This document shows, piece by piece, positions 10,430 through 35,235 of a stretch of 64,000 nucleotides of DNA. How positions within the stretch are numbered: the stretch's first letter is position 1; the number at the start of each line of letters is the position of its first letter. This stretch comes from Lytechinus pictus (lineage: Eukaryota). The translations under genes were made by a program, and so were the position numbers. Under the pieces are notes generated by a model. That model worked only from the letters and a program-made list of their open reading frames with translations, was not told the origin of the DNA and did not search any database. Location: contig NC_087250.1 in assembly GCF_037042905.1 (NCBI RefSeq), forward strand, positions 27,716,001 to 27,780,000, written 5' to 3'.

Positions 10430-11869
10430 TAGTGCGTCCCACAAAAAACGAAACCGAGATTTATCGATGATTTATCATAACTTAATCACAAATAAAATAG
10501 ACAAATGACCTAACATTGTAAAGCTTGGAATTTCCTCTTTCATCTGCAATTACTTAAATAATTTTTTATCCACGCATGAGTGAGTAAAAACAAATTTGAA
10601 GAGGGGATACCAAAAAGTCATTTGGCGGGCTGTATCTGGGTTAAAAAAAACACGCATTTTGAAAAATTTCAATATCTGCTCTTTAAAGGAGAATGAAACC
10701 CTTGAAACCAGCTGAATCCATATCAAAGATAAAAATCAAAGAAACATATTGTTGAAAGTTTGAGGAAGATTGAATGAATAATAAGAAAGTTTGAGGAAGA
10801 TTGAATGAATAATAAGAAAGTTATGAGCATTCGAATATTGAGATCACTAGTGCCATGTAGATCCTCCCAACGGCAATGTGACCAAGATATGTGATATCAC
10901 ACACGTACAACTCCCTCATTACTTTAGTACTTATTTCACTTATATTCTCACTTTTATAGAGTCTCTATCACAAGTTGAGGTGTTCTCTTTATGAGATGAC
11001 AAGTACAGAGGTTTCACATTATATAATTGATGAATCGTTTGTCATATGATTAGAATGAGCAAAAAGAGATGTTTTGGGGTATATTTTCGGTGTCCAAATG
11101 GGAGAGTTGTACGTGTGTGACATCACAGATCTTGGTCGCATTGCCAATAGGAGGATCTCCATAGCATTAGTGATCTCGACATTCAAATGCTCATAACTCT
11201 TTTATTGCTAGTCCTATTTTACTCAAAGTTTTGTTGATCTTATTCTTTGATTTTTCTGCTTTCACAAAAGCTAACTTGCTCCAAGAGTTTCATTCTCCTT
11301 TAAATTGATACCTCAATTACAGAAAATGGTCAAGAAATAACACAGTTCTGGTTATTTGAAATAAGGTTTGAATTTCAATAATTTCATAAAATAAAGAGGT
11401 TTTACAGGCTAGCCGCAGCGTTCAAACTCACTCGACACTCCGTTTTGTTGACTATCAGCCATGCATTAAGTCTTTTGTTAACTGTGCGATAGCTTCTGTG
11501 GGAAACCGGTGAAAACACGTTTATTTAATGAAATTATGGAAATACAAGCATTGTTTCGAGGGAACAGAACCTTTTTACTTCTTGACAATTTTTTAAGATT
11601 AAGGTATCAAATAAAAGAGCAGATATTGAACTTTTTAGGCATGTGATTTTCTTTTTGAAATTCAGATACCCCCGCCAAATGAGTTTTTGGTATCCTTTCT
11701 TCAAATTGTTTTTGCTCACTCATGCGTGAATGAGGAATGATCTAAGTAATATCAGATGAAAAAGGATATCCTAAGCTTTACATTGATAGGTCATTTGTCT
11801 ATTGTATTTATGATTAAGTTATGATAAATCATCGATAAATGTCGGTTTCGTTTTTTGTGGGACGCACTG
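10430..11869. mobile_element. Tc1/mariner-like MITE with long TIRs and TA TSD
   Basis: (T)AGTGCGTCCCACAAAAAACGAAACCG... / ...CGGTTTCGTTTTTTGTGGGACGCACTG, flanked by TA. Inverted similarity extends about 250 bp. Confidence 0.85.
10687..11299. mobile_element. Kolobok-like MITE (TTAA TSD, AG..CT termini) nested in the Tc1-like MITE
   Basis: TTAA|AGGAGAATGAAAC ... GTTTCATTCTCCT|TTAA. Related copies at 58483-59845 and, partially, ~52130-53064. Confidence 0.85.
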
Positions 11870-14248: not shown

Positions 14249-16637
14249 TTAAATGTGACCATTGTGCTACTTCTAAAAATTCAAAGAACTACGCCACTGT
14301 CATATTAAAATTATGTTCAACGCTTCACCAAAATAATATATCAAAATATAATAACACAACACAAGAAATACATTTAATTATAAAATTAAAAAGAAGATTA
14401 TGGCAATGGCAATTAATGAAAGTGAAATGTATATCTAACACAAAATAATGTATACACTGACAGAGCAACGCACGTTGCTTATTGAATCACCCATTGAAAG
14501 TGAATTTCTTCTTTAGAAACCACCCAGTAATGGCTTCCATAAAGTGACAGTGATCTGAAGTCGGGTATCATCTATCGGGAATCCACCTTCATGTCTATCC
14601 ATTCTACGTCAAAAGATGGCGCTCTTTCATGTCTACATTACACACACATTGAATCACTTGATGAAGATGTGATTTCTGACATTAATAAAATCAGTTGAAA
14701 TCAGAAGTCCTAGCAGTCTACATTGAAGCAGAAATGAAACGATTGATTTCCGTAATGTCAATACGCTAAAGACGCACTCCCTCACTCCTCACTTTTTTCC
14801 TTGCACAGAGCAAATATGCAACTAAATAGCTCATGAAATAAATTCGATGAGATTGAGGAATACCCCCCCCCCCCCATTGCCCAATTGGCAAGCATACACT
14901 GTTACTTTACAAACATGCACGTCAGGTCAAAATTTTTATGCAAAAGGAAGATCAAATGAAATATTTTCAAACTGAGAATGTCGTCTTCCATTATAATCGT
15001 TGGAGGAATCATGTCGGGTTTTTTTTGGTGAGGCACCGATCCCTTAAATATGCCAAATAAGCTGGAGGTTTCGTGTTGAGATAGAAAGGCCAACGCAAAA
15101 AGCAGGGTAAAAACATGGTGTTGTGATCATGTATCAAGATGCTCAAAGCTACCCGTCACAGGCTGAAAATAATATAGAGTAATACTCATTTACCAAAATG
15201 CTGAAAATTTTGATTAAAATATGATTACAAAATACTGCTGTTAGTGTATTTTAATGGGCTGGTGATATCACGTCCAGTGCCATAGAAAGGACTTTTCAAA
15301 TAGCGGGTGCTGGGGGATTCGTTAAAAAAATTGTTAACTAGATGATGCCCGAGGGGATTTCGGTAACTAAAAAAAAAGAAGCAAAACAAAATAATAATAA
15401 TAATAAATAAATAAATAAATAAATAAATATATAAATAAATAAATAAGTTTCTGCGGCCAAATGTTCCTCTATTTCAATCATTTTTTTTTCTTGTCAACTT
15501 GATGGCAATGGAGTGCTTCCTATGTGATAGCATACGCAACACCCTCTGAAAAATCATGAGGGGTGCTTCCGCATCAGTTATTAGATTAAATCATATTCCT
15601 CTACTATCTGAAGACTTGTTTGCATGATAAATATATTACACATTTAATCAGTAGTCAATTCATGTTTTCCGTTCTTGGTGGACGAAATTTGACGAAATAT
15701 AATTTTCCAAAAAAAAAAAAAAAAGAATAAGTGCGGATTAGTCTGCAGGCACAGACCCTGATTAGAACTTCGACCAACCAGTGTGCCTCCACGCAAAGAC
15801 TAGCACATACAAAACTTGCTGTTCCAAGATAACTTTCAGTACACAAGGCATATAAGTAGGCTGCACATTAAGACCCTTAACTCGAGTGAAGGGTTTGCCC
15901 AGCAGACTAAGTGCGGATAGACATCATCAACTTGTTTATTGTATTGTAGCGAACCCGTCCGCTACGGTTTTTAGTTATAATGCAGTAAACGTAGATGGCG
16001 CTATAGCATTTGGTGCGTTAGAATTCAATGATCGACTTACGCAACGCACTGCGTAAGGCAGCTCTCGGAGACTATAAATAGCGGAGTTTCGCGGTGATGT
16101 CGTCACTTCGACGCTGGCGAAGGTCGGAGTCGGACGAAGAACTCCCTGCGCTCCTCTCCAACTGGGCTGAATCAAGAAAAGTTTTGGAAATGAACATTGC
16201 TCGCTTAATTTCTACTACTGCAAATACAATTCTGGATAATTGGTGACGGTGTTAAAGGTGATAACATGTAAGAGATGCTGAATGTATAATTAAATTATGA
16301 CCGTTGTCATAAACCAAATGTAATCATCGTCTCCAACCTGTGTGATCTATGGAATCCGATTGACTTCTACAGTATAAGCCTTCCCATAGAGATTATACAG
16401 CTCCAATAGAAATCCCCTGTAATTCTATATTTCACCTGTTCACACTACCTCTCAACACTCCACCCCCATATATTTTGGGAAAATGGAACACGCCCGGGTC
16501 TCTACATAACGCCATACGGAAACCGCTCGCATTAAGGATGGCTAGCAATTCATCAACAGATGAAGGTGATAGAGGCAAGGGACAGGCCGGCCCCCAGCAT
16601 CTAGGACCCGATCCAAGACGGAGGGCCGCCACACAAA

Positions 16638-16655
16638 TGGTGTCAGGAGTGGGAT
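16638..16655 (+). promoter_or_regulatory. Primer-binding site complementary to tRNA-Leu 3' end
   Basis: TGGTGTCAGGAGTGGGAT is the reverse complement of the tRNA-Leu(CAG) end ...ATCCCACTCCTGACACCA. It lies 4 nt after the 5' LTR. Confidence 0.9.
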
Positions 16656-16791
16656 GGAGAATGTGAGGACATCTGGAACAGATGGCAGCAATACTTCAGG
16701 GGATGAATCAGTTTCTACACATTCTGGAATCAAGTTATCTACCAGTAGGGGAAGAAGGCAGAAGACCGAGGCTCTGATGGAGATCGCATAG

Positions 16792-18216
16792 ATGATGAAA
16801 AATCAAGCCAAGCTAGCTCAGGACGAGATGATGAAACAGCAAGCCAATGCCCAGGTTATGATGATGCAACAGGCTAAATCTATGCAAGCACCGATGGAGA
16901 AGCTGCTTCTATCATTCTCTAATGAGCAGAGTAAGCCTACCAGACGGAGACGAAGAAAACTGAGTACTCGGGGAAGCACAGATAGGTCTACACAAACAGC
17001 ATCATCAACTGAGGAGAAGGAAGTTCCATCCAATACTACGTGGCGGAATAGCAGAGGCAATCCTATTAATTCGCCAGTAACAAAATGCTGCCAGGAAGAC
17101 GACATCACCAGCGGTGCAACCAACTGCTGTGCGAGACCCTCCAATTGATGACAGTAGCCTCCAGGCCATAATCCAGCAAGCATTGGAAGATACACTCCAA
17201 CATGGGCATACGTCAAAACCAAGGTCATCACAGGATGCCCAACAGAAGCCTAGGGGTACCCACTTTATCAAGCCAGACAAAAATGATGGATGTTCATCAT
17301 GGATTGATTACAGCCAACATTTCGACTCATGCCGAGCAGTAAATGGCTGGGATGATGAAGAAGCGGGGAGGATCCTGGCATCATGCTTACGAGGTCAGGC
17401 ACTAAGGCTGCTACGGGAACAAAGGCATATGGTAGGCTTCAATGATCTGAAGAGAATGCTGGCCAATCGGTTCTCAGACAATAAACAGGCTGAGAATCAT
17501 TTACTAGAGCTGAAGCAAAGACAGAGACAGGAGGGCGAGACACTCAAGGAGCTTGCACAAAGCATCAGAGAGCTCACTGCATTGGCCTACCCAGAGCTGG
17601 ATTTGATGTCCGTGACAGATTGGCGAAGGGACACTTCATGGATGCCCTTGTGAAACCTAAGCTCAGAGAGGCAGTGTTCAACAACCAGTGTAAGACATTG
17701 GATGATATGGTACATGCTGCAGTGGTAGCTGAGGCCTTCCATCATTCTGAAGACCAGCGGAGCAGCAGGAAACCTAAGTACAGCAGGGCAATGACAAAGG
17801 AGAATGAGGAAGATGAATCAACCTCCGAACCAATTTCAGAAGTGAAAGCTATGGTAGCTACCTTGAAGGAAGAACTCTCCAAGCGTAATGCTGAGATGAC
17901 CACATTGAAGGAAGAATTGGTAGAGGCCATCGGGACTGCACTACAGCCACAACCTCAGACTGTGGTACCTAGTGACAAGCAACAGCAGAAGCAGAGAAAT
18001 TCAGACAAGTTTGATGGTAGCTGCTACTATTGTGGAAAGAAAGGCCACATGAAGAGGAAGTGCAAAAAGAGGATGAGAGACGAGGCTCAGATTCATCATG
18101 CCGAGCAACAATATCAGAGCTCAACAAACGAAGTAAGGTCGCCCCAGGGGGGCATGGCGCGGCCGTGGAACCTGGAAGCACCAGCCCCTCAATACCAAAT
18201 GCCACACAGCCAATAG
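16792..18216 (+). pseudogene. gag: Frameshifted gag with CCHC zinc knuckle
   Basis: Three overlapping ORFs: FIKPDKNDGCSSWIDY..HFDSC..VNGWDDEE, LKQRQRQEGETLKELAQ, and CYYCGKKGHMKRKC. Confidence 0.85.
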
Positions 18217-18280
18217 TTACAACCAGGTACAATGGAGAAATCAACAAAGGAATTCTGAAGGGCATGTATGTGTCCAGGTA

Positions 18281-20698
18281 TTGAGAGGACTACACTGGGA
18301 GACGCTATTGGTCTATTTGGATGACGTGATCGTGTTCGGGAAATCCATTGATGAGGAGATGGCGAGGCTGCAGCAGGTGTTTGAACGTCTAAGACAGACA
18401 GGGCTGAAGTTGAAGCCAAAGAAGTGCAACTTGTTCAAGACTTCTGTTTCATACCTCGGGCACGTCGTCTCTGCAGAAGGTATATCGACTGAGAAGGACA
18501 AAACAGAAACAATCAGGACATGGCCCAGACCCGAGTCAGTGAGGGAGGTCCGTGGATTCTTAGGCCTTGCATCTTACTATCGTCGCTTTGTTGAAGGCTT
18601 TGCCAGAATTGCTAGGCCTCTGCATCAACTGACAGAGAAAGGACGGAAGTTTGAGTGGAACCAGGACTGCCAAGAAGCTTTCGAGGAACTGAAGCACAGA
18701 CTAGTCACGGCTCCAATACTGGTATACCCTACCGAGGAGGGAAGATTCATTCTGGACACAGACGCCAGCAATGATGGTATCGGCGGTGTACTCTCCAAGA
18801 TACAGAATGGCCAGGAACGGGTCATTGCCTATGGAAGCCGAGTCCTAAGCAAACCAGAAAGAAACTACTGTGTAACCCGTAAGGAACTACTTGCTGTAGT
18901 AGTGTACCTCAAACATTACAAGCAGTATTTGTATGGTCGCCACGTCCAGGTGATGACTGATCATGGAGCTCTGAGATGGCTGATGAATTTCCGGCAACCT
19001 GAAGGTCAGCTGGCAAGATGGCTGGAAGTCATATCAAGCTACGACATTGAGATTATACATAGGGCTGGAAGGATTCACAGCAATGCTGACGCTCTATCAC
19101 GGAGACCATGCAGGCAGTGTAAGCGAGAAGGAGGCTGCATATACGGAGGAGACACTGGGAATATCAACGTCATCACGGTGAGGAATGACAACCTAGCTGA
19201 CATCCAAGAGGCCCAGCAGGAAGATCCTTACATAAATCCAGTCAGGAATGCACTGGTGGAAGGGAGGAAGCCATCCCGGGAAGAGGCGACGGCATATCCT
19301 TTTAAGGTCAAGGTTCTTCTGGATCACTGGGACCAGCTAGAGGTCAAAGATGGTGTTCTGTACAGAAGGTGGGAATCAGAAGATGGAAGAGATGTCAGGT
19401 GGCGTTATGTACTACCTAAAGTTCTGATACCGGAGGTGCTACAGGACCTACACTCCTCTCCAATGGCAGGACATCTTGGTATGACGAAGACTCTACACAA
19501 GGTACAGGAACGTTTCTACTGGGTAGGAATGAAGGAAGAAGTCAGATCCTTCATTAGGCAATGTCCAGATTGCGCTCGCCGACAGAAGGCAGGACCAGGG
19601 AAAAGAGCTCCGCTACAGCAGAGGCAGAGTGTATATCCGATGGAGAGGGTCGCCCTGGACATCATGGGACCATTGCCAGTTACTGATGACGGGAACAAGT
19701 ACATTCTTGTGGTAGCTGACTATTATACAAAGTATGTCGAGGCATATGCAATACCAGATGAAAGAGCTGTAACAGTGGCACGGAAGCTAGTGGACGAATT
19801 CATCTGCCGCTATGGAGTTCCTAATGAGATACATAGTGACCAGGGCAGGAACTTCGAGTCCAACATCTTCCAAGAAGTGTGTCAACTACTGGGTGTCAGA
19901 AAGACAAGGACGACACCGTACAACCCAAAGAGTGATGGGATGGTTGAAAGGTTCAACCGTACGCTGATCAACATTCTTGCTACCCTATTGGATCCAGAGA
20001 AGCACCAGCGGGACTGGGACAGGTATATACCCTACGCCACAGCTGCATACAGAAGCTCCACGCACGACACAATCAAGGAGACTCCAAACATGATGATGTT
20101 TGGCCGAGAGGTTTCACAGCCTATCGATTTGCAGTTCTCCAAACAGGATGGAAGAGAGTGGACTGACTATGCTCAGCAGCTGAGGGAGAGAATGGAAGAG
20201 ACATACCAGAGGGCCCAGCAACGTAAGGGTGTTGAATTGAGACGCCAGAAAAGGAACTATGATCGGAAATCAGATGGGAAACTCTATGAAGCTGGACAGT
20301 TCGTATGGCTCCGCAACAATGCCAGGAAGAAAGGAGTCAGCCCCAAATTGTCACCTAAATGGGAAGGTCCCTACCAGGTGGTGTCTAGACTTTCCGACGT
20401 GACCTATCGTATCCAGAGATCCCCCAGGAGCAAACTAAGAGTGGTACACTTCGACCGCCTGAAGCTCTACAACGGATCTGATGTACCAGAGGCCTGGAGG
20501 ACTCAGCCAGCCGACCTAACAGACGAGGTGACTACCAATCGTGAACCAGATGTTGTGGATGATGGACAACCTACTCAGGCTTCTACTGAGACTACAGTGG
20601 AACCAGGAATTCCATTACCTGATGATTCTAGTGACCCAGACGTCAACCCTTCACGCTATCCTAGGAGGCGGAGAAGGCCTCCAGACTATTTATATTGA
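18281..20698 (+). CDS. pol: Gypsy pol remnant: C-terminal RT, RNase H, integrase (HHCC, DDE core, GPY motif)
   Basis: YLDDVIVF, LDTDAS, ELLAVV, TDHGAL, NADALSR, H..GHLG..C..C, ALDIMGP, SDQGRNF, GMVERFNRT and WEGPY are present. Protease and RT N-terminus are absent. Confidence 0.93.
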   Translation: MRGLHWETLLVYLDDVIVFGKSIDEEMARLQQVFERLRQTGLKLKPKKCNLFKTSVSYLGHVVSAEGISTEKDKTETIRTWPRPESVREVRGFLGLASYYRRFVEGFARIARPLHQLTEKGRKFEWNQDCQEAFEELKHRLVTAPILVYPTEEGRFILDTDASNDGIGGVLSKIQNGQERVIAYGSRVLSKPERNYCVTRKELLAVVVYLKHYKQYLYGRHVQVMTDHGALRWLMNFRQPEGQLARWLEVISSYDIEIIHRAGRIHSNADALSRRPCRQCKREGGCIYGGDTGNINVITVRNDNLADIQEAQQEDPYINPVRNALVEGRKPSREEATAYPFKVKVLLDHWDQLEVKDGVLYRRWESEDGRDVRWRYVLPKVLIPEVLQDLHSSPMAGHLGMTKTLHKVQERFYWVGMKEEVRSFIRQCPDCARRQKAGPGKRAPLQQRQSVYPMERVALDIMGPLPVTDDGNKYILVVADYYTKYVEAYAIPDERAVTVARKLVDEFICRYGVPNEIHSDQGRNFESNIFQEVCQLLGVRKTRTTPYNPKSDGMVERFNRTLINILATLLDPEKHQRDWDRYIPYATAAYRSSTHDTIKETPNMMMFGREVSQPIDLQFSKQDGREWTDYAQQLRERMEETYQRAQQRKGVELRRQKRNYDRKSDGKLYEAGQFVWLRNNARKKGVSPKLSPKWEGPYQVVSRLSDVTYRIQRSPRSKLRVVHFDRLKLYNGSDVPEAWRTQPADLTDEVTTNREPDVVDDGQPTQASTETTVEPGIPLPDDSSDPDVNPSRYPRRRRRPPDYLY

Positions 20699-21364
20699 AC
20701 ACTCATAACATTCAATCTGCAGATAGATGTGGAACTGTATTCTAGCTGTTTCTAAAACTGACAAATTGTTAATATATATCGTTCTATGGATCTACTGCGT
20801 GGTCTAAAAGAAGACGCAAGGATTCTGACGGTTGAAGAATGAACTAATCAGATAGAAGCACTGATCCACACAAACTGTTGAACCAATGTGGAAAACAACC
20901 CAATCTATACTGGACTTGTCTATATATAAATGTTTCGCCCTATTTATGTCGTAGTGTAAGTCATTTATTTGTTTTGTGAAACACCACACCATTATCTTTT
21001 CGGATAATATTGTTCAAGGAGGTGTCCTCGACTCACATATATTTATAAAACTAATTTTGCATAGAAGCACTCGCTGTAATGTTTATATTCAGAGTTAATG
21101 CCCACAGAGTGAACACGTTTCATATTGCTAATGAGAATGATGATAATGTTGCTATCAATGAGAGCTTACAGAAATAAGTTATGGAAGCTGCAGAGAGATT
21201 GATTGTACATAGTATCCATATAAGGAGTGTATATAAGAGGACATAACTCTCAGTATGATTAATACAGCGATGCATATAATTCAATACATTTTGGTTGCTT
21301 TGTCAAATTGTTTGGAATCCCTCTGCTAATGTGAGGATAAAACAAATGTGAGGACACATTCCTT

Positions 21365-21375
21365 GAAGAGGGGGG
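21365..21375 (+). promoter_or_regulatory. Polypurine tract
   Basis: GAAGAGGGGGG just before the 3' LTR. Confidence 0.85.
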
Positions 21376-21540
21376 CTGTGTAGCGAACCCGTCCGCTACG
21401 GTTTTTAGTTATAATGCAGTAAACGTAGATGGCGCTATAGCATTTGGTGCGTTAGAATTCAATGATCGACTTACGCAACGCACTGCGTAAGGCAGCTCTC
21501 GGAGACTATAAATAGCGGAGTTTCGCGGTGATCTCGTCAC

Positions 21541-21722
21541 AACTGGGCGTTGTGGCGTGTGCCTGCAATCCAAGCTGTGTGGGGAAGTTACAAATTGATG
21601 CAGAGGTTCGAGGTTCGAGCCCTGGTCACGTCTTTCGGATGGTGACGTTAAAGGTCGGTCCCAGACGTAAATAATCATATCTGATTGATACACGTCTGAC
21701 AAAAACTAAAATACACACACAC
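21541..21722 (+). mobile_element. SINE inserted in the 3' LTR (7SL-like head, B-box, Deu/Nin-like core, (CA)n tail)
   Basis: Absent from the 5' LTR. 11-bp TSD GATCTCGTCAC at 21530-21540 and 21723-21733. GGTTCGAGCCC B-box and ACACACAC tail. Confidence 0.85.
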
Positions 21723-23894
21723 GATCTCGTCACTTCGACGCTGGCGGAGGTCGGAGTCGGACGAAGAACCCCCTGCGCTCCACTCCAACTGGGCTGAATC
21801 AAGAAAAGGTTTGGAAATGAACATTGCTCGCTTAATTTCTACTACTGCAAATACAATTCTGGATAATTGGTGACGGTGTTAAAGGTGATAACATGTAAGA
21901 GATGCTGAATGTATAATTAAATTATGACCGTTGTCATAAACCAAATGTAATCATCGTCTCCAACCTGTGTGATCTATGGAATCCCTATTGACTTCTACAG
22001 TATAAGCCTTCCCATAGAGATTATACAGCTCCAATAGAAATCCCCTGTAATTCTATATTTCACCTGTTCACACTACCTCTCAACACTCCACCCCCATATA
22101 TTTTGGGAAAACGGAACACGCCCGGGTCTCTACATAACGCCATACGGAAACCGCTCGCATTAAGGATGGATAGCAATTCATCAACAGATGAAGGTGATAG
22201 AGGCAAGGAACAGGCCGGCCCCCCAGCATCTAGGACCCGATCCAAGACGGAGGGCCGCCACAGTATATTCATGAAGACATGCAGAGGCCCGTCTCATCAG
22301 AACAATGAAAGTGCTTAAAATATCAAAAATCTATCATTTCTTATCCGGTTTCAATGACATTGTCAGTATTTTAATTGTCTCATTTTACTTTTTCTATTCA
22401 AATCATATTATATCCAAGCCTAGAGTACCCCCTCTAAGCTTCCTTTCTTAGGCACGTCAACCCACATGAAATAATAATATTTGTTGACAACGAAACTACA
22501 TAATTTTTATCATGTCATCTCTGCCTTCCAGAAGGTGTACGTTGTTCATTGAATCACATGGATCCTTTTAATTTATACAGTCTTTTATATATCTATATAA
22601 TACACTGAAAAATGAAGAGTTAATGGACGAGGTGTAATGTTTAATACTTAATTATTATATTGCCCCCTTTCCTGTCCAAACGACGGTGTAATATTCGCAA
22701 CAATCACCCTCATGAACATTTGGTATTTGCATACTATACCAGCATGCTGACAATCACCATGTAGAAGCATGCTCATTATAACTGTAACGTTAAATATTTT
22801 TTAAATGATATGTTATTTTTCCTGTTTAACCATCCTTGTGATCCCATACAGAGTGTTGTGCATATGAAGAGTTTAGTTACAAAAGGGGTTAGGTCCACTA
22901 TGGACCATTTCGAGAAAAAACCATGTTTTTTATTCTCACTTAGGTATTGTTAAGTTGGTGGAATGACACTGTATATCACTGAGATGGACACGTGACTGAT
23001 TGAACTCTCAAATAACAAGTTTATTAACAACCACTTAGCAACCATGCGCATGCGTAAACATATATCATAACCAGGGCCGTAGCTGGAGGGGGGGGGGGGG
23101 GGTATGGGGGTGTGTACACCCCCCCCCCCCCCAACATTCATGGCAGTCGGCAAAATCATGTACCAGTTGCCAAAATGGAGGATAGGGGAAAAAGAAAGAG
23201 GGAAAGAAAGGAAGAGAAAAAAGAAAGAAGGAGAGAGGATAGAGAAAGAAAAAGAAAGAAAGAAAGAGAGAGAGAGGGGGAGAAGGGGGGGGGGAGAAAG
23301 TGAGATAGAAAGAAAGAAAGAAAGAAATAATAATAATGATAATAATAGGCATTTATATAGCGCCATCTATCTAGAAATATTCTATTCCGAGGCGCGTTGT
23401 TATTATTATTAGGTAGGCACTTATGAACCAAGTTTGAAAGGAGACTCGTAAAATTACGTCGCTCTCGCCGATGAATATTCATTAGATCGTGGTCGTGCGT
23501 GCTCAATACACACTGAGTACAGCTGGCATGCAGAAAGTTATATGCGAGGAACTTTGGCTCCAGAGACAAGTTGTCAAATAATGTGTGTGTGTGTGTACCA
23601 TCGGCTGGTAGTAGTCCATGCTGTACTTCAAACCGCGCGTCGGAGAGAGTGCATGGCAATTCGGTAAAACGAAGTTTCCGATATAAAGAAATAATATAAC
23701 ACTATGTACAGTACGTTGAGAGGCAAATGTCAGATCAGGGGAGGCAGGAGTACAATGGGCTTTTTTTAAGGGAAGAATAGTGTAGAATAAAAGGTATCAT
23801 ATATAGCCAATTGATCTAGGTGAGGGATTAAGCTTAGTGAACAATGATGACTTTGATGATTAAAGAAAAGAATGAATATATACCTTACCTGAAT

Positions 23895-25490
23895 ATTATG
23901 GTGAAGCAAATTTAAAAGGAGGTGAGGCAAGTTTCAATGGAGGTTTTTAAAAAGAATAAACTGTATTATGGTGAAGCCAATTTAAAAGGAGGTGAGGCAA
24001 ATTTCAATTGGAGGTTTTTTAAAAGAATAAACTGTTCTACAAATTTTAAAGGAGGCGAGGGAAGTTTCAATTGAGGTTTTTAAAAAGAATAAACTGTACT
24101 ACAAATTAGGGTGAAGCCAGTTTAAAAGGAGGTGAGGCAAGTTTCAATGGAGGTTTTTCAAAAGAATAAACTGTACTACAAATTTAAAAGGAGGTGAGGC
24201 AAGTTTCAATGGAGGTTTTTAAAAAGAAACTGTATTATGGTGAAGCCAATTTAAAAGGAGGTGAGGCAAGTTTCAATGGAGGTTTTTAAAAATAATAAAC
24301 TGCACTACAAATTTAAAAGGAGGTGAGGCAAGTTTCAATTGAGGTTTTTCAAAAGAATAAACTGCGTTAAGGTGAAGCCAATTTAAAAGGAGGTGAGGCA
24401 AGTTTCAATGGAGGTTTTTTAAAAGAATAAACTGTACTATAAATTTAAAAGGAGGTGAGGCAAGTTTCAATGGAGGTTTTTTTTTAAAGAATAAACTGTA
24501 TTATGGTGAAGCCAATTTAAAAGGAGGTGAGGCAAGTTTCAATGGAGGTTTTTTTTAAAGAATAAACTGTATTATGGTGAAGCCAATTTAAAAGGAGGTG
24601 AGGCAAGTTTCAATGGAGGTTTTTTTTAAAGAATAAACTGTATTATGGTGAAGCCAATTTAAAAGGAGGTGAGGCAAGTTTCAATGGAGGTTTTTAAAAA
24701 GAATAAACTGTACTATAAATTTAAAAGGAGGTGAGGCAAGTGGAGGTTTTTAAAAAGAATAAACTGTATTATGGTGAAGCCAATTTAAAAGGAGGTGAGG
24801 CAAGTTTCAATGGAGGTTTTTAAAAAGAATAAACTATACTACAAATTTAAAAGGAGGTAAGGCAAGTTTCAATGGAGGTTTTTTGAAAAGAATAAACTGT
24901 ATTATGGTGAAGCCAATTTAAAAGGAGGTGAGGCAAGTTTCAATGGAGGTACTACAAATTATGGTGAAGCCAATTTAAAAGGAGGTGAGGCAAGTTTCAA
25001 TGGAGGTTTTTAAAAAGAATAAACTGTACTAAAAATTTAAAAGGAGGTGAGGCAAGTGGAGGTTTTTAAAAAGAATAAACTGTACTACAAATTTAAAAGG
25101 AGGTGAGGCAAGTTTCAATGGAGTTTTTTTTTTAAAGAATAAACTGTATTATGGTGAAGCCAATTTAAAAGGAGGTGAGGCAAGTTTCAATGGAGGTTTT
25201 TAAAAAGAATAAACTGTACTATAAATTTAAAAGGAGGTGATCGAGGCAAGTTTCAATGGAGGTTTTTTAAAAAGAATAAACTGTACTACAAATTATATGG
25301 TAAAGCCGATTTAAAAGGAGAAGAGGCAAGTTTTAATGGAGGTTTTTAAAAAGAATAAACTGTACTACAAATTATGGTGAAGCCAATTTAAAAGGAGGTG
25401 AGGCAAGTTTCAATGGAGGTTTTTAAAAAGAATAAACTGTACTACAAATTATGGTGAAGCCAATTTAATAGGAGGTGAGGCAAGTTTCAA
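23895..25490 (+). repeat. Satellite array (~55-77 bp variable unit) in the left TIR
   Basis: Unit GGTGAAGCCAATTTAAAAGGAGGTGAGGCAAGTTTCAATGGAGGTTTTTAAAAAGAATAAACTGTA. Confidence 0.95.
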
Positions 25491-25814
25491 TATCTTTAAC
25501 AGTTTAATGTATTGATACATTATATTTCAACATAGGATGGATCATTTGCTAAGTTTTCATTAATGAATGCTCTCCTTGCCATTGTCAAATGGCCATGACC
25601 AAAGGATTTTAGCAACATTTCAGCAAGCTTTACATATGCATGCAAGACCAAAAATTGCTCAAAAGCATGACTTCATGAACAGACACAATACAGATTATGT
25701 TACTTGCCAAAAATTAATGTATCATTATTTATACTCGTACTAATTAAAAAAAAATCATATCATGTTTATTAAGAAGGTTTCAGCACCCCCTCCTCCCCCG
25801 CCCCAAATAAACAC

Positions 25815-27454: not shown

Positions 27455-27808
27455 TTAATGTAATTGTTGTAAAACAGTACTAAATTACTCCATAACAGTA
27501 TCTATTGTAAAAAATATTTGATTTGTATTAGGTCTACTCTGTGATGGTGTAGTTATACCTTGTTTTAATATTTTCATTACAAGTTGAACATTAAACTACA
27601 TCACACCAATGACAAAAGGGGTAGAAGCATAGGTTTGCAACCTTTACTTAAAAGTTAAGCTCTTTCAAGAAAAATTTAATCTTCACTATACAAAATGTGA
27701 ATATGGATTGTTTAACAACTATAAACAAGATTATGTTCTGCCTTCTTGAAATGGTTGCAGGAGGCTTATTCCGGCTTGTGTGGCCAATTTTATCTCCCGA
27801 CAACTTAA

Positions 27809-28562
27809 CCCTAACTAGGCCGGGCTTTTTGGGCTGTTCAGTGGCCGCCGGGGGGGGGGGGGGGTTGATTCCACCCCCCCTCCCCCCGAGACCTCGGTCG
27901 CCGATGGCGCGAGTGCCGCAAAAATTTGCACGCTGGTAGTGTGCGATGTAATCTACAAGGCTGTAATGATAAAATTTTCCAAAATAATGAGATTTTATTT
28001 TACATGAATTAATTATGCTAATTTATGCATAAATCATACTTTTTGTTGTAATTCACTAAATAAAGCTCCTAGAATGCTAATTTTTTTTTAAATTATTCTT
28101 TGTAGCATTCTTAACAATCTCAATTGAAAAAAAAAATTGTTTTGGAATTCAATTTCTTATGTATTTCATTGTTTTTCAACCTTTTGTTTTTCTTTGTTTT
28201 TTTTCACCAGATTTATTGCACAACCTTTTTGAAGCATAATTATGCTAAAATCAATTGATTTCAGCTGTTAAAAGTAAAAATAATCATATCTTTATGACAT
28301 AAGATGAAAAAACTCAATTTACATTGACTTTGTATATAAAATCACGTTTAGGAACAATTTTTGGTCAGACATGCACTTACAAAATGTTGCGTAATTTCAG
28401 AACCGTGTACATGGGGTCGTAAATTTTGTCTCAAAAGATGCGCAAAACTTTTGAAGTATAAACTCTGCAAGTGGTGCGGTCAAAAAAATTTGCGCGGCGG
28501 AATGATCGCAGAAAATGTTGAGGGGGGAGTTCATTCACCCCCCCCCCCCGGCCTGTTTAGGG
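27809..28562. mobile_element. piggyBac-like MITE (TTAA TSD, CCCT..AGGG)
   Basis: TTAA|CCCTAACTAGGCCGG ... CCGGCCTGTTTAGGG|TTAA. A second copy lies at 58803-59575. Confidence 0.88.
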
Positions 28563-30027
28563 TTAAGAATAGTTGGTCTGATCAACTTTAGACTTGGTCT
28601 AAGTGTGTATAATTGAGTAGAGACGATCTGATCAGATTTTGGGGTTAAAAGTCAATGACTCATCAAATACATAATATATCCTGTTCTTGCCGTAACTCAG
28701 TAAAGAATCATGTGTGGGATCAACTTCAAATTCAAAGTTAAGGTAAGGATCTGATTATATTGCAAGATTACAGATATGCAGTCGTTATATAAATTCAAAT
28801 AGTTCATTTTCACATTAACTGTACAGTTGTCAATAGGATGAAATTCAAACTTGGTTCCTGCATGCACATTTAAGGCAGATAATCTCAGTAAATAGTAGTA
28901 GTTCAAGTTCATAGGTCACAGACATCAATATGCATGTATACCCAAAATATCTCATATTCCCATGTCGTTATAGAATCATTTGAGGGTTCTACTTCCAATA
29001 TGGCTTATCTGTGCATAATTATGACTGGTGAAATGTTAGCCCATGAGGTCAAAGTGCATGGTATAACAGTCATGTCCTCAAAAAGCATATTCTTTCATCC
29101 AAGTGATATGTGTGACTACAGAGGTTTTGCATATTTAATGAGCTTGATGAAGACCAAAGCACAAGCCACGAGAGGATTAGGATGAATCTGGCCAATTTGC
29201 TCATTAGCATAGGGACCTGCACTCTGACTGATAACTTTTTAATCTCCTGAATTCTTTGAAAGGATCAATTTGAAAATTACCTCTTGTGTGAGTGAAGATT
29301 TTTAGTCAAATTTCTATTGTCAGCAAGGTCATGTTAAAAATGTAAATATATAATATATTCTTGGTCTAGCAAAGGCAGTGCCATAAATTTTGACTGCATG
29401 TAGTTGAGAATCCATCTAGTTAGTCATAAAACATCAACGGCTAATTGTATCCATTCAACTTAGGGTTTCTTACGATACTTGCTAATGTTAAATCATGGAA
29501 GAATCACCTGTGTAAATAATGATACATTGTTTGTTAGCATTAATCGGCATGAGGCTGATCAATTTCTTTGATAACTATTTGATGCAAGATTATATGACCT
29601 TTGTGTTTTATTCAGTATTTTTAGAATGTCTCATTTCATTTTGAACATAATTTGCGACCATTTTTGCTGCCCACTCAACAGTCTTTGAAGATGTTTGTGC
29701 AAAAACTTGATTAGAATGCATACCGTTATCACACAGTACTTGCCAACTTTTAGTATCTTTTATCATGATCCTAGGCCTGCCAGTACTGAAAATAAACGTA
29801 TTTTAAACTGTATTATAGCGTATATTTTTATTTACTCAAACTGCAGTTGCTTTCCATGATCATGTCCTGGTTTTATAATACTTGCTGTTAACTAATGTAA
29901 TTGTCACTTGTTTTTTCTAACAGCGAGAATATATTGCTATATGTGTCCAGCCACCCCAATACCAACAATAAATACATTGATTTAAAGATTCTCATTGATC
30001 TTGAACAATCACATCCTAAGCTGTAAA

Positions 30028-33000
30028 TTGATTGATTGATTGATTGATTTTATTTGTCAGGCAACTATGAACAAGTACAAGAAAATATGAACAGAATTGT
30101 ATACCTTGACAGGATAACCCATGAAAGCCGAGATGGCTTATTTCCAATGGGGTCCTTACATCAGTAATTGAAGACAATGTACATCTATGAAAAAACACCT
30201 ATAGAAATCTACAAACTACATAAATTAAGTCTAGACCACTAAATTAACACGATAAATTGTAAAACTTAATATATAAAAAGACAAAAGCAAATAAGTTTGC
30301 CATGAAAAACACGCAGTCAACAAAATATGATTAAAATAATTGTAAAACAGGTTGAGTAAACGATCATTACTTCTAAGTTACATATGATAATTATACTAAT
30401 AATCAATTTTTAGGTAGCGGTAAATGCATCGTAACTAATACAAGATTCATGAATCGTAAAACCTAAGATATGAAAAAGTACAAATAAGTTTGACATCAAA
30501 CTTTCACGCAAACAACAAAAGATGATGAAACAATGTAAAACAAGTTGATAAAAAAAAAATCATATCTAAATAGTTATATATAAGACTACAATATTTAACA
30601 TTACAGAGTGGGGACGTTTTTAAAGTGTTGTTTCAATACTCTTTTAAATTGTGAAAAAGTCTTAACCGATTTAACATGATTAGGGAGGGAATTCCAAAAA
30701 TGTATACCTTTATAATAAAATGTGTTACCAATTTGACCTTTTCTCATAGGTACAACAAAGTTAAACAGACTATTTCTTGTTTCATGCCCGTGAATATTAG
30801 ATGACCGTGTAAAATTTTTTGATATGTAATGATATTCGTTTGAATAGAAAATTTTATGAATATGGTGAAGTATAAGTTGTTGCGACCTCAAGTCTATGCG
30901 AAGAAGGCCAGCTTTTTCGATTTCATTCTTCCCAACATGTGTTCTTGGGTGTAAGCAGGTAATAAATCTAACAATCTTATTTTGAATAATTATAAACTTT
31001 TTTTGATCAACCTTTCCAAGACTGCAGTACCATGCTGCATTAGCATAATCAAATAAACACTGTATTAATGAAAAGCTTAAAATGCGTCTGGATTTCGTAT
31101 TCATGCAATTTTGGTACCGGTATAGAAATTTCAAGCGAGCATTAGCTTTTTTGACAATAGAGTCAACCATGGATGTACATGAGAGATCACTATTTAATAT
31201 CAGGCCTAAATACTTCACGGAATTCTGTCTCTTAATTAATTGATTGTTATAGTATATATTGAAATCATCTGTATGCTTAGACTTACCCCGCGAACAAAAC
31301 AAAATACTTTCAGTCTTACCAACATGTAAGCTAAGCTTGTTATCTATCATCCATTTAACACAATTTGATAATTCTAAGCTAAGTTTTTCACCGATCAGCT
31401 TAGGACTTGTATCAGAATAGAGTAAAACACTGTCGTCTGCATATAAAAGTAATTTACTTTCATCAACACAAATACACATATCATTGATATAGCACATAAA
31501 AAGAATGGGACCTAATATGCTCCCCTGTGGAACTCCACACTTTATAGGCATAGAATATGAAAGTACATTTTGCATGGATACCACTTGACGGCGATTGGTC
31601 AAGTAAGACCTAAACCAATTCAAGCATGCTGAATTCAAACCCATCACTTCTAATTTCTTTAAGAGTATTTCATGATTAACCGTATCGAATGCTTTTTGTA
31701 AGTCAAGAAGAACCATGCCAACATAACGGCCTTCGGAAATTTCATTCCTAACAAAATCCAACAAGTGAATTAAACATGTTTCAGTAGAATAACCATTCCT
31801 AAAACCAGACTGAAATTCATAAATGATTTTGTATTCTTTAAAGTATTTCTCAATTTGAGAATACACGCATTTCTCCAAAATTTTCGACACTATGCTTAAC
31901 ACACTAATAGGTCTATAATTGCCAACGTGAGTTTTGTCTTTCTTTTTGTGTAGTGGTGTGACTTTAGCGATTTTCATTTCATCAGGGAAGGTACAAGTTG
32001 AAATAGATAGGTTAATAATGTAAGTTAAAGGTATAAAGACGTTTTTTGCACCATCCTTTAAAAATCTAGCAGGAACCAAGTCAAGTCCGGTACTTTTTGA
32101 TATTTTCAACTTGGATAATTCATCTAATACAAACTTTTCTGTGACAGGAGAAAAATTAAAACAGCCTCTTTGTATACCTTTATTGTCGTATAGTTTTTTC
32201 AAATTAGGACTGTCGGCCCCAAACTCACTTCTGTCCGTAATGGGGAGCTCACAGGCTAATTTATCGGCCACTGTTGTAAAATAATTGTTGAATTCGTTGG
32301 CTATCTTTAGATTATCATGACATAATTCCCCTTCAATATTAATAACACTTTTCTGAATATTTTTTTGTTTGTTTTTTAAACCTAACTCTTTGAGATTCTT
32401 CCATAATTTCCTAGAATCATGTTTATTGTCTTCAATTTGATTTTGGAAAAATTCGTCTTTAGCTTTCCTCACTTTTCTTTGTACCACATTTCGCAATAGT
32501 TTAAATTTCCTTTTGAGTTCTAAATTACCAATATCCTTTTTCATTTTCCTGAAAGCTATATTTCGTTGTCTTATCAAACCAATAATTTCACTGTTCATCC
32601 ATCTTTCTGTTCTTTGCTTAATTCTTACTTGTTTTAGAGGCGCACACTTATCAACTACTGACATGAAAATACTTTTGAAGAGTGACCAAGCAATATTTAC
32701 TTCATTACATTCAAATATAACAGACCAATTGATTTGAGATAAAACGAAATTAAAATCATTTTCACAATAGTTTTTCATACATCGAATGCTTATAGTTCTA
32801 TGTTGCCCGAATACAGGCCTGATAAGTTTCCTTGAACAATACGTTAAAAAGTGATCACTTAAGCCAATTTCAAAAACACCACTTTGACAAATATTTTCTT
32901 CTTTACTACAAATTACATGGTCTATTAATGAAGAAGTGGTAGGTGTAGTTCGGGTGGGTTTCGTTATAAGTTGGCTCAAACCATATAAATTCAAAATATT

Positions 33001-33699
33001 CTTGTATCTTTTGGTCAGTGCTGATTGTTGTAATAGACAAATATTCATGTCCCCTAAAAGTATAACCTCATCATCTTTTGTTAATATGTCCAATATATCA
33101 GGGAGAGAATCAATAAAGTGATTGTCTCTCGGGGGTCTGTAGACTACACCTAAAGTAATAGGCTTTGTATGTGGTAATAGAATGTCGATCCACAATGATT
33201 CAATACCATCAGGTGTAAGATCTTCTCTTAGATTAAATGCAATATCATTTTTAATATAAAGGCAGACCCCACCACCATGGTCGCCTGCACGATCTCGTCT
33301 TAATATAGAATAACCATCGATATAAATTTCTTCATCATTTATGGACGAATTCAACCATGTTTCAGTAATTGCAATTGCTGAAATTCTACTTTCATTGAGA
33401 AGGACGCGTAGTTCAGGAACTTTATATAAGATGGATCTGATATTTAAATGAACGAAATGCAACCCTTTTGCTTTAAATATATTATTAAATGATTTGTATA
33501 AAACAGCATTATCAATTCCAGTAGGTGTGTTAAATTCAGGGATAGGAGGTGCATTAACTGTTGAGGTGGGTTGAACATCAATAAAGGATTGTGTAAAAAT
33601 GGAGTCACAAAATGGCGGCAATGAACAGGTTAAACATATCCAATTCTCATTTGGGTTTTGATTTATCTTGTTAATATTGATCAATAATATCCCTCGCAA
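30028..33699 (-). mobile_element. CR1/L2-group LINE, 5'-truncated, with 3' UTR and (TCAA)n tail
   Basis: Minus-strand ORF2 and 3' UTR 30028-30600, with AATAAA followed by a TCAA-repeat tail. Confidence 0.9.
30601..33699 (-). CDS. LINE ORF2: partial PHD, APE endonuclease, reverse transcriptase
   Basis: Uninterrupted 1032 aa with WICLTC, HLNIRS, ITETWL, GGGVCLY, LGDMN, SDHF, NYRPIS, QSGFR, DLQKAFD, GVPQGSILGP, LYADD and KYLG. The true start is lost. Confidence 0.93.
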   Translation of the reverse strand: MRGILLININKINQNPNENWICLTCSLPPFCDSIFTQSFIDVQPTSTVNAPPIPEFNTPTGIDNAVLYKSFNNIFKAKGLHFVHLNIRSILYKVPELRVLLNESRISAIAITETWLNSSINDEEIYIDGYSILRRDRAGDHGGGVCLYIKNDIAFNLREDLTPDGIESLWIDILLPHTKPITLGVVYRPPRDNHFIDSLPDILDILTKDDEVILLGDMNICLLQQSALTKRYKNILNLYGLSQLITKPTRTTPTTSSLIDHVICSKEENICQSGVFEIGLSDHFLTYCSRKLIRPVFGQHRTISIRCMKNYCENDFNFVLSQINWSVIFECNEVNIAWSLFKSIFMSVVDKCAPLKQVRIKQRTERWMNSEIIGLIRQRNIAFRKMKKDIGNLELKRKFKLLRNVVQRKVRKAKDEFFQNQIEDNKHDSRKLWKNLKELGLKNKQKNIQKSVINIEGELCHDNLKIANEFNNYFTTVADKLACELPITDRSEFGADSPNLKKLYDNKGIQRGCFNFSPVTEKFVLDELSKLKISKSTGLDLVPARFLKDGAKNVFIPLTYIINLSISTCTFPDEMKIAKVTPLHKKKDKTHVGNYRPISVLSIVSKILEKCVYSQIEKYFKEYKIIYEFQSGFRNGYSTETCLIHLLDFVRNEISEGRYVGMVLLDLQKAFDTVNHEILLKKLEVMGLNSACLNWFRSYLTNRRQVVSMQNVLSYSMPIKCGVPQGSILGPILFMCYINDMCICVDESKLLLYADDSVLLYSDTSPKLIGEKLSLELSNCVKWMIDNKLSLHVGKTESILFCSRGKSKHTDDFNIYYNNQLIKRQNSVKYLGLILNSDLSCTSMVDSIVKKANARLKFLYRYQNCMNTKSRRILSFSLIQCLFDYANAAWYCSLGKVDQKKFIIIQNKIVRFITCLHPRTHVGKNEIEKAGLLRIDLRSQQLILHHIHKIFYSNEYHYISKNFTRSSNIHGHETRNSLFNFVVPMRKGQIGNTFYYKGIHFWNSLPNHVKSVKTFSQFKRVLKQHFKNVPTL

Positions 33700-35235
33700 G
33701 TACTTGATTGAATGCAGAAGTTTGGTGAGAGCTTCAACAAATAAGAGAACAAGATTTGGGGTTCACTTAAGCATGCGATGTGTAATATGTAGTTCAACTA
33801 CTTAGCAGTGAGCAAAACACGGATATCAAAGTCTTGTATTTTGTCTTCAACTTTTACAACCTCACATTTTGACAGTATATGAAGAATTTTTTTTTTCGGA
33901 TAAACCAATATTCTAAATATGCGTTTGGAAAACTGAATTACTATTTTGGTTATTTTCTACGAACCTTCCCTGGCAACTTATGATATTTGGGTGGCTGGCC
34001 ACATTTTGTTTTGTTGAGAAAAAATATCAAAGAGTATATGAAAAAAATATTTATGTAAAAAAGCTTGCCTAGCTGTTAGTATTTTTTCTATTGTACTTTG
34101 TCATGTAACTCTGATAGATTTCATTTCGTTACACAAAATGGGGTTCAGTATTCAGAAAAACCATTAACCTTGCCTCAACCACAACAGTACTTGCCAAACT
34201 GGATAAATCAACATTATATCAAGCTGTGTAGAAGAACTTAATGATCATGTAGATACCATTAAGTGCATACATATGTAATGTCTTTCAAGCTGTATGACAT
34301 AGATATTCTTTTCCATCCATCAGCTTCTACTATTTTTTAAAGGTTAGTATTTATTGTCATGTTGGCAAATTGTGAAATAGTTCATGTTGAAATATGTTGT
34401 ATTACCTGTCATGCATTTGTAATATTATTTTTTTAGAATATATTCTGTCATCATTTTCAGTACATAAAAGTTTATTCAATGTATGCCTTTACCAAAGTTG
34501 GCCATAAGCACAGTGGGTACCAACTATCACTGAAGACAACACAACAATTACTCAAAATATATGTATAGCCTTATAAATGTACAAGTGAATAAAATCTACT
34601 ATGACTACATAGCTTTTCTTTGTGCAACACAGTCATATTTCATTTGGATCAATTCAAAATTGAGTGGTGTTTTGGGGGTAATGCTATGGTAACTGCAGTT
34701 CTGTTGTCCTCTGACAGTTGGTGTTGTAATGATGTGATTGGCAGTGTGTGGACGTCATGTTATAAGAGAAAAAAGAACGTTAAAGTGAGAGTGTTGGCTT
34801 TGAAATGGACTCAACCTATGAAAGTTAAAGTTTGTGCTGCAGAAACTGGTGTGGTAGTGGGATGATAATGATGATGAGGAACAGGGCTGGTATTCAATGT
34901 TACTCTTAAAGCCACAATTTTAAGTATATTTTACTCAGTATTTTGCAAAAGTCACACAAAAAACAGAAACTTGCATGTGTTAGTAATCGTACTCAAATGT
35001 CAAAATAATTTTGACACTATAGCGACATACTTTGATGAGTACTTTCACTCAATGAAGGTACTTTGAAAACTCATCTTGTCGAGTATATTTCATTTGACAC
35101 TATAGTGACACATCAAGTGAGTAAATTTGAATAACTCAATCTAATGAGTAACTTAACCCAGTGTAATGAGTATGTTTAAAGTATATTTACTGACTTTTTG
35201 AGTATGTGAGCATATTACACACTTGATTAGTTTTA

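What the first reader, a model, noticed from the sequence alone, without database searches (positions are those of the whole stretch)
21541..21722. Young SINE with a 7SL-RNA (Alu-domain)-like head, B-box and Deu/Nin-like core in an invertebrate-type genome
Seen: a 182-bp insertion in only the 3' LTR, with an exact 11-bp TSD and a (CA)n tail, so it is a retroposed unit younger than the LTR element. Its start, ACTGGGCGTTGTGGCGTGTGCCTGCAATCCAAGCT, aligns without gaps to the human 7SL 5' end as I recall it (GCCGGGCGCGGTGGCGCGTGCCTGTAGTCCCAGCT), 27/35 by manual count. It keeps the 7SL-type A-box TGGCGTGTGCC and potential TGGC/GCTG loop-loop pairing. Next come a tRNA-type B-box (GGTTCGAGCCC) and CGTCTTTCGGATGGTGACGTTAAA, which resembles the DeuSINE/Nin core. 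Established: 7SL-derived SINEs are known mainly from Euarchontoglires (Alu, B1) and hagfish. Inference: this may be an independent origin of a 7SL-headed chimeric SINE.
Basis: partly seen in the sequence, partly recalled or inferred. Interest (0 to 1): 0.85.

Follow-up and report, generated by a model that had tools for sequence, protein, structure and literature searches.

The report
7SL-headed SINE in a sea urchin
This is one recent copy of an abundant short jumping element of sea urchins whose first 47 bases match the start of signal-recognition-particle (7SL) RNA, the piece that drives human Alu, and it would be the first such element in an invertebrate as far as the papers searched here show.

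Summary
Confirmed. A 182-bp insert (21541-21722) with an exact 11-bp target duplication lies only in the 3' LTR of a Gypsy element in a Lytechinus-type sea urchin. Bases 21542-21588 match positions 1-44 of the Rfam metazoan SRP model (E 0.00024); no tRNA or 5S model matches. Public runs show a multi-copy family in two organisms (roughly a thousand copies, a crude figure), and the three majority letters by which other copies differ in the head all equal a real 7SL gene. 7SL likeness stops at the end of the 5' Alu domain; from the next base on, the element matches a SINE on a metagenome contig that has the same B-box region, 47/47-identical Deu/Inv-like core and tail but a tRNA-type head. So a 7SL piece likely replaced the front half of a tRNA-type head. 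RNA reads are 9:1 sense and start inside the head. Not shown: match to the host's own 7SL gene, SRP9/14 binding, partner LINE, absence from Repbase/Dfam. The scan reported this family before on other copies in this genome.

The parts
21541..21722 (+). SINE copy, full length
   Evidence: absent from 5' LTR, flanked by TSD; family-wide coverage of exactly this stretch
21530..21540 (+). target-site duplication, left copy (11 bp)
21723..21733 (+). target-site duplication, right copy
21542..21588 (+). 7SL-derived head = 5' Alu domain (closing helix, two hairpins, possible loop-loop pairs)
   Evidence: Rfam RF00017 positions 1-44, E 0.00024; 12 of 13 listed pairs kept; 32 of 45 aligned bases equal to 7SL gene L002
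   Evidence: 9/11 to recalled consensus; position from PMC7245038; function not tested
21589..21625 (+). 3' half of a tRNA-type head, shared with the tRNA-type SINE on L001
   Evidence: local score reached by 12 of 2000 shuffles; first 10 bases 9/10 identical to L001:226-235
21612..21622 (+). tRNA-type B-box
   Evidence: 11/11 to recalled consensus
21625..21661 (+). 5' piece of the Deu/Nin domain (Inv-like)
   Evidence: 28 of 37 columns to AmnSINE1 by hand; like bivalve Deu starts; 21626-21672 is 47/47 identical to L001
21662..21698 (+). 3' hairpin, likely the LINE recognition signal
   Evidence: z = -5.6, 0 of 200 shuffles; 28 of 32 columns shared with L001; partner not found
21713..21722 (+). 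(AC)5 tail
   Evidence: same tail in loose ends of other copies
21379..22262 (+). 3' LTR of the host Gypsy-type element (insertion target)
15945..16633 (+). 5' LTR, empty site
   Evidence: 680 identities, 9 mismatches, 2 gap columns against the 3' LTR flanks

Best explanation
The insert is one copy of a multi-copy sea urchin SINE whose first 47 bases match the 5' Alu domain of 7SL RNA and whose remainder matches a tRNA-type Deu/Inv SINE, and it likely arose when that 7SL piece replaced the front half of the tRNA-type head. Steps: (1) shown: retroposed insertion with TSD, many copies, head attached; (2) shown: 7SL match ends at 21588 and the match to the tRNA-type SINE begins at 21589; (3) inferred: template switch or recombination joined the host's 7SL 5' end to the older SINE, giving a hybrid polymerase III promoter (7SL A-box, tRNA B-box); (4) supported by read shape, not proven: transcription starts at the element's own 5' end; (5) predicted: the head folds like the SRP Alu 5' domain, binds SRP9/14 and brings the RNA to ribosomes; (6) inferred: an unidentified LINE recognises the 3' hairpin and (AC)n tail and inserts it by target-primed reverse transcription. 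I put the origin (steps 1-3) at about 0.9 and the whole chain, including the SRP9/14 step, at about 0.6.
For: SRP model match confined to positions 1-44. A 23-nt head pattern has one match in the 596-Gb genome collection and it is the start of a 7SL gene (59.7 bits, E 1.3e-14). At the three head positions where most other copies differ from this one (21560, 21566, 21577) and at a minority variant (21578), the other letter equals the 7SL gene in 4 of 4 cases; two of these were left free in the pattern and two lie outside it. 12 of 13 pairs are kept, with two double-sided changes in the closing helix and three one-sided changes. Head-to-tail pieces with unrelated flanks in 3 of 3 contig runs; 410, 4983 and 4196 contigs laid; summed depth over the body about 1.1 million against about 300 on the LTR flank in X10. 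L001 shares core (47/47) and tail (28/32) but not the head (1261 of 2000 shuffles score as well) and has its own A-box (11/11) and B-box (9/11). RNA run X21: 1983 vs 217 depth by mate direction, the major direction falling to 7 at 21541-21553, 228 clipped reads ending a median 16 bases into the head and only 70 listed reads running far upstream. A 46-nt 5' Alu domain binds SRP9/14 and supports a round of Alu retrotransposition but lacks a B-box (PMC11760393, abstract and Discussion): the piece this element kept, plus the box it needed.
Against: The host's 7SL gene was not seen: no genome is held and no 7SL continuation appears among the 24 loose-end rows shown of 741 (human-like reads are filtered), so the kept pairs may only mirror the host gene and show no selection on the SINE. 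The head alone folds no better than shuffles (z +1.47, 191 of 200), one helix pair is broken and the second loop is 2 bases longer than in L002. Neither Rfam nor ARAGORN calls the L001 head a tRNA, its host is unknown, and no tRNA-headed sister is among the rows shown. 1312 of 2569 RNA reads share one 3' flank, so the RNA signal rests mostly on one locus in one sample, and strand is read from the usual library convention. No partner LINE was found.
Confidence: 0.6

Rival explanations
1. Same 7SL origin, but the head serves only as a promoter A-box; SRP9/14 binding plays no part and mobility rests on the 3' hairpin alone.
For: The element has a LINE-type 3' hairpin, which is enough for most tRNA SINEs (established); the 3' strand of the Alu domain is missing; the head fold is not favoured on energy alone; one pair is broken.
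Against: The junction lies at the end of the closing helix, about 33 bases beyond the A-box, matching the minimal SRP9/14-binding piece of PMC11760393; the majority letters keep the conserved turn after the first hairpin.
Confidence: 0.3
2. The head is a decayed tRNA-type or other Pol III head that resembles 7SL by chance.
For: Short match, 22.5 bits against a gathering score of 70; chance 20-nt matches do occur in large collections (L003).
Against: E 0.00024 over all Rfam families, starting at model position 1 at the element's 5' end; 4 of 4 variant letters move to the 7SL gene; no tRNA or 5S match.
Confidence: 0.04
3. A one-off chimeric retrocopy (7SL piece joined to a SINE during this single insertion), or vertebrate Alu/B1 contamination.
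For: No second copy in the 64-kb window; such chimeras are known for small RNAs (PMC7245038 Discussion).
Against: Head-plus-body pieces with different flanks in three contig runs of two organisms and head letters in hundreds of RNA reads; native Deu-like body; TSD in a native LTR.
Confidence: 0.01
4. Not exclusive of the above: the family is already in Repbase or Dfam under a tRNA-SINE or unclassified label, with its head unrecognised.
For: Repbase holds at least eight sea urchin SINE2 entries, and the Inv domain is listed for echinoderms; I saw the sequences of only the heads of SINE2-1_SP and SINE2-2_SP.
Against: Those two heads are plain tRNA type; the table in PMC3747384 lists SURF1/2-4c, 2-3, 2-8 (2-6, 2-4b) as tRNA-headed; papers of 2020, 2024 and 2026 name no invertebrate 7SL SINE.
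Confidence: 0.2

Closest known systems
SINE1-1_EBu of the hagfish (Kojima 2020, PMC7245038; parts 1-3 of 4 of the text read, supplements searched)
   Same: 7SL-derived head put on the body and tail of an older tRNA SINE; microsatellite tail; TSDs; independent of Alu
   Different: Hagfish head holds 7SL 5' 96 nt plus the 3' end (whole Alu domain, 7SL's own B-box) and an RTE tail; here only 47 nt of 7SL, a tRNA-type B-box, a Deu/Inv piece, and an invertebrate host
Alu, B1, Tu of Euarchontoglires and Urop of the shrew mole (PMC13023118, passages; PMC11760393, abstract and Discussion)
   Same: Begin with the 7SL 5' Alu domain; A-to-B distance of about 66-70 bases; a Tu monomer of dual 7SL/tRNA origin is mentioned, so hybrid heads have a precedent
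   Different: They keep both ends of 7SL around a central deletion, end in poly(A) and use L1; this element has no 7SL 3' part, no poly(A), and a hairpin tail
DeuSINE / Nin / Inv superfamily, e.g. AmnSINE1, BivaMD-SINE1, sea urchin SINE2-3_SP (PMC4824008, PMC5804259, passages and supplement lines)
   Same: The start of the Deu domain follows the B-box region
   Different: Only about 37 bases of the domain; the members named in these passages carry tRNA or 5S heads, none 7SL
SINE on metagenome contig L001 (unnamed family, host unknown)
   Same: B-box region, 47/47 core, 3' hairpin
   Different: tRNA-type A-box head with no 7SL likeness; (AACC)n tail; 9 extra bases in the hairpin

Membership tests
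SINE (general) | short, dispersed, at least 100 copies | tested here: met
   thousands of contigs, unrelated flanks; crude depth ratio about 800-1500 in organism B (the tool warns that depth is no copy number)
SINE (general) | retroposition marks: TSD, simple-repeat tail, empty site | tested here: met
SINE (general) | internal polymerase III promoter, transcribed from its own 5' end | tested here: inconclusive
   boxes present; 9:1 strand bias and read starts inside the head, one sample, one main locus; polymerase not identified
SINE (general) | 3' end shared with a partner LINE | tested here: inconclusive
   hairpin present; no LINE with this end in the window; genome not searchable
SINE1 (7SL-derived head) | 5' end derived from 7SL RNA | tested here: met
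   host gene itself not seen
SINE1 as described (Alu, B1, Urop, SINE1-1_EBu) | complete Alu domain: 7SL 5' and 3' ends joined across a central deletion, with 7SL's B-box | tested here: not met
   match stops at model position 44; the rest does not align to 7SL positions 46-91
SINEBase 7SL criterion | at least 60% identity to 7SL over at least 60 nt | tested here: not met
   overlap is 47 nt
SINE1 (7SL-derived head) | SRP9/14 binding by the head | not testable with these tools
   predicted from kept pairs only
DeuSINE / Nin / Inv | Deu-type central domain | tested here: inconclusive
   28 of 37 columns at the 5' start (hand count); far shorter than Nin (about 120 bp); Inv consensus not available to compare
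SINE2 (tRNA head) | whole head derived from tRNA | tested here: not met
   no tRNA call; only the B-box half is tRNA-type
Catalogued sea urchin families (SINE2-1 to 2-8_SP, SURF1) | full-length identity to the consensus | not testable with these tools
   only two heads seen, both unlike; SINEBase supplements and Nisson 1988 not held

The most novel reading that the evidence does not exclude
An undescribed, independent origin of a 7SL-headed SINE, the first in an invertebrate, in which evolution kept exactly the minimal SRP9/14-binding 5' Alu domain and borrowed the missing B-box from a tRNA SINE; ribosome hitch-hiking through SRP9/14 would then be a general route to SINE success, also with a hairpin-recognising, non-L1 partner.
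Probability: 0.5. Interest if true: 0.8.

Novelty: new variant of a known kind. Interest (0 to 1): 0.65.

Why it matters
7SL-derived SINEs are called extremely rare and are reported only from supraprimates, one hagfish and shrew moles (PMC13023118, 2026). A sea urchin case would take them outside vertebrates and, because it keeps only the 47-nt 5' domain, is a natural test of the cell-culture result that a 46-nt piece carries Alu's advantage. A sister element with the same body and a tRNA-type head gives a ready comparison of what the 7SL head adds, in an animal whose embryos are easy to inject.

Tried and rejected
No whole genome is held, so no direct copy count, consensus or host 7SL gene. 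No second copy in the window (3 motif matches against 3.2 expected). Whole-window Rfam scan at gathering level: 0; ARAGORN: 0 on window and L001. Partner LINE: the best tail match elsewhere in the window (28278-28317) is reached by 2 of 40 shuffles and lies inside an inverted-repeat element, so rejected; the LINE at 30601-33762 ends in a different repeat. Viral contigs: 0 for the core and head patterns; the one tail match, L003, is a chance 20-mer in a phage gene. Run search: no listed holder is on record as RNA; X21 was added by species label. 7SL reads were not recognised in the RNA lay; inconclusive. mir-1268 and snoRNA matches over the element are far below their gathering scores. Look-up of earlier findings by sequence and by near place: nothing. 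Supplements I could not see (SINEBase alignments; file 1 of PMC4824008 and of PMC4758252) may hold sea urchin consensus sequences that bear on novelty. A likeness of the B-box half to a valine tRNA is recalled only and was not tested.

Full report
Setting. The window is sea urchin DNA. The B-box ORF at 6259-7947 has its best named relatives in Lytechinus pictus (91%), L. variegatus and Strongylocentrotus purpuratus, and the record of the window's own protein lies on a contig of the same length as the L. pictus paralogues; L. pictus is therefore inferred. No whole genome is held. A Gypsy-type LTR element spans 15945-22262: LTRs begin TG and end CA, a 4-bp host duplication flanks it, and the pol frame holds RT, RNase H and integrase domains.

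The insertion. The two LTRs align on both sides of a 182-bp gap. The insert 21541-21722 is flanked by an exact 11-bp repeat, present once in the 5' LTR. Reads or contigs skipping 193 bases occur in 3 of 4 runs. The LTRs differ at 9 of 689 positions (1.3%), and the insertion is younger than that. None of the listed pieces spans the filled site, so it may be private to the sequenced animal; this is not shown.

The head. cmscan against 4227 families gives Metazoa_SRP as the best match: E 0.0023 on 2.3 kb, and E 0.00024, positions 1-44 of 299, window 21542-21588, on the insert alone. The other five matches there have E 1 to 5.7, and none is tRNA or 5S. A 23-nt head pattern with three free positions found one match in the 596-Gb prokaryote genome collection; it is the first part of an animal-type 7SL gene on a short contig (L002; 59.7 bits over 91 nt, cut by the contig end). 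A chance hit of that pattern is possible in so large a collection, but a chance hit that continues as SRP RNA is not. Against L002 the head has 32 of 45 aligned bases identical, 27 of the first 35 without gaps (biased upward by the way L002 was found). Of 13 pairs in the three helices 12 are kept, two through changes on both sides and three through one side; one is broken. Three loop-loop pairs are possible. Folded alone the head is no more stable than shuffles (z +1.47). The strongest independent point: in other copies the majority letter differs from this copy at 21560, 21566 and 21577, and a minority at 21578; all four equal L002. The family is closer to 7SL than this copy is.

The rest. 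After 21588 nothing aligns to 7SL positions 46-91 (226 of 2000 shuffles score as well). A 28-nt core pattern found one metagenome contig, L001, with an element that is 47/47 identical over 21626-21672, 28/32 over the tail, weakly but detectably alike over 21589-21625 (12 of 2000 shuffles; 9 of the first 10 bases), and unrelated over the head (1261 of 2000). Its own head has an A-box (11/11) and B-box (9/11) by recalled consensus, though Rfam and ARAGORN do not call it tRNA, and its host is unknown. The window's B-box (21612-21622) fits 11/11, and the element has no run of four T. The core matches the start of the Deu domain: 28 of 37 columns to the AmnSINE1 line in the supplement of PMC7245038 (hand count) and visibly to bivalve Deu starts. 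PMC5804259 calls the 5' part of Nin 'Inv' and lists it for echinoderms. The tail forms a hairpin at 21662-21698 (z -5.6) before (AC)5. So the 7SL match ends and the tRNA-type SINE match begins at neighbouring bases, 21588/21589.

A family. I laid 4 of the 23 runs listed. Over 21450-21810, 2569 reads (X21, RNA, organism A), 410 contigs (X4, A), 4983 and 4196 contigs (X10, X9, organism B) were laid, and depth rises just over the insert. Long pieces run from head to tail with unrelated flanks in all three contig runs (records 1-3, 9-10, 17, 19, 20), at 82-86% for the most diverged. Depth is lower at the head than in the body, but equally low at the tail, which every copy must have; clipped ends there carry the 7SL-type letters, so the dip is read as an alignment effect. 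Dividing head or tail depth by the depth of long pieces gives about 1000-1500 in organism B, and body depth corrected for word overlap about 800-950; the tool warns that this is no copy number, so I claim only an order of a thousand. Earlier scan notes give 1300-1600 copies for this genome and say the head matches the host's own 7SL gene; I could not check either directly and do not count them as evidence. My reading was fixed in notes before I saw them.

Expression. In X21 one mate direction dominates 1983 to 217, which by the usual library convention is the element's sense strand. That depth falls from 915 at 21580-21592 to 7 at 21541-21553; 228 clipped reads reach a median 16 bases further into the head, and only 70 listed reads run far upstream. 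This is the shape of an RNA that starts at the element's 5' end. But 1312 reads share one 3' flank, it is one sample, 717 loose-end rows were not shown, and the polymerase is not identified.

Mechanism. Best reading: the host's 7SL 5' end was joined to an older tRNA-type Deu/Inv SINE, replacing its A-box half. The hybrid keeps a working promoter and the LINE-recognised tail, and gains the 5' Alu domain. Moldovan, Yin and Moran (PMC11760393; abstract and Discussion read) report that a 46-nt 5' Alu domain binds SRP9/14 and supports a round of retrotransposition, but cannot go on for lack of a B-box; this element has that piece and a borrowed B-box. Binding, ribosome targeting and the partner LINE are predicted, not shown. 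The main rival is that the head only supplies an A-box.

What is known. Kojima 2020 (PMC7245038; parts 1-3 of 4 read) calls the hagfish element the first clear SINE1 outside Euarchontoglires; Kojima 2024 (PMC10886601, passages) lists primates, rodents and hagfish; Kosushkin et al. 2026 (PMC13023118, passages) add the shrew mole, say none is known elsewhere, and mention a tree shrew monomer of dual 7SL/tRNA origin. All these keep both ends of 7SL. Nine searches showed no invertebrate 7SL SINE in their listings; for broad ones I saw only the top 25-30 of several hundred papers. The table in PMC3747384 (passage) gives the S. purpuratus families it lists tRNA heads. Repbase, Dfam, the SINEBase alignments and Nisson 1988 could not be read, so the family may be catalogued with its head unrecognised (about 0.2). 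Other papers seen as passages: PMC3531059, PMC4824008 (plus supplement part 1 of 4), PMC4758252, PMC5786205, PMC5804259.

Verdict. A real, multi-copy, recently active SINE with a 7SL-derived 5' domain on a tRNA/Deu body. It works, by prediction, like Alu, but fails the described SINE1 anatomy (no 7SL 3' end, 47-nt overlap), so it is filed as a new variant of a known kind. Interest 0.65; 0.8 if it proves undescribed and SRP9/14-dependent.

Noticed in passing
window 21507-21540 and 16073: The SINE landed about 30 bases downstream of a TATAAA motif present in both LTRs, near the presumed LTR transcription start.
   Followed up: no
window 15945-22262: Full-length Gypsy-type element with 1.3% LTR divergence, 4-bp host duplication, primer-binding and polypurine tracts; gag region split over two frames (17081-17653, 17494-18216), pol frame 18137-20698.
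   Followed up: partly
run X21 on window 21698-21722: About half of the RNA reads (1312 of 2569) continue into one 3' flank: one dominant expressed copy, a candidate source gene.
   Followed up: no
runs X10, X9 on window 21541-21722: Head-to-tail neighbouring copies with short spacers; several 3' flanks, like this TSD, begin with or near GAT, a possible target preference. A 7-base unit at 21603 is missing in about 8-12% of depth.
   Followed up: no
L001:165-375: SINE with the same core and tail but a tRNA-type head that Rfam and ARAGORN do not recognise; host unknown.
   Followed up: partly
L002:489-579: An animal-type 7SL gene on a 1.6-kb contig filed in a bacterial MAG, likely host DNA carried along.
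   Followed up: partly
window 27805-28567 and 58799-59580: Two 87%-identical copies of an element with terminal inverted repeats and TTAA at the ends, by eye a piggyBac-like non-autonomous element.
   Followed up: partly
window 10901-11302, 52663-53066, 58478-58683, 59594-59850: Dispersed repeat family of unknown kind, 78-93% alike.
   Followed up: no
window 6259-7947: Single-frame B-box protein of a large sea-urchin gene expansion, 113 relatives, many in tandem on one contig.
   Followed up: partly
window 30601-33762 (-): LINE with an open 1053-codon endonuclease-RT frame and a four-base repeat tail unlike the SINE's.
   Followed up: partly
window 23399-25491 and 38159-40337: Two arrays of a roughly 77-bp satellite in opposite orientation, 89% alike.
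   Followed up: no
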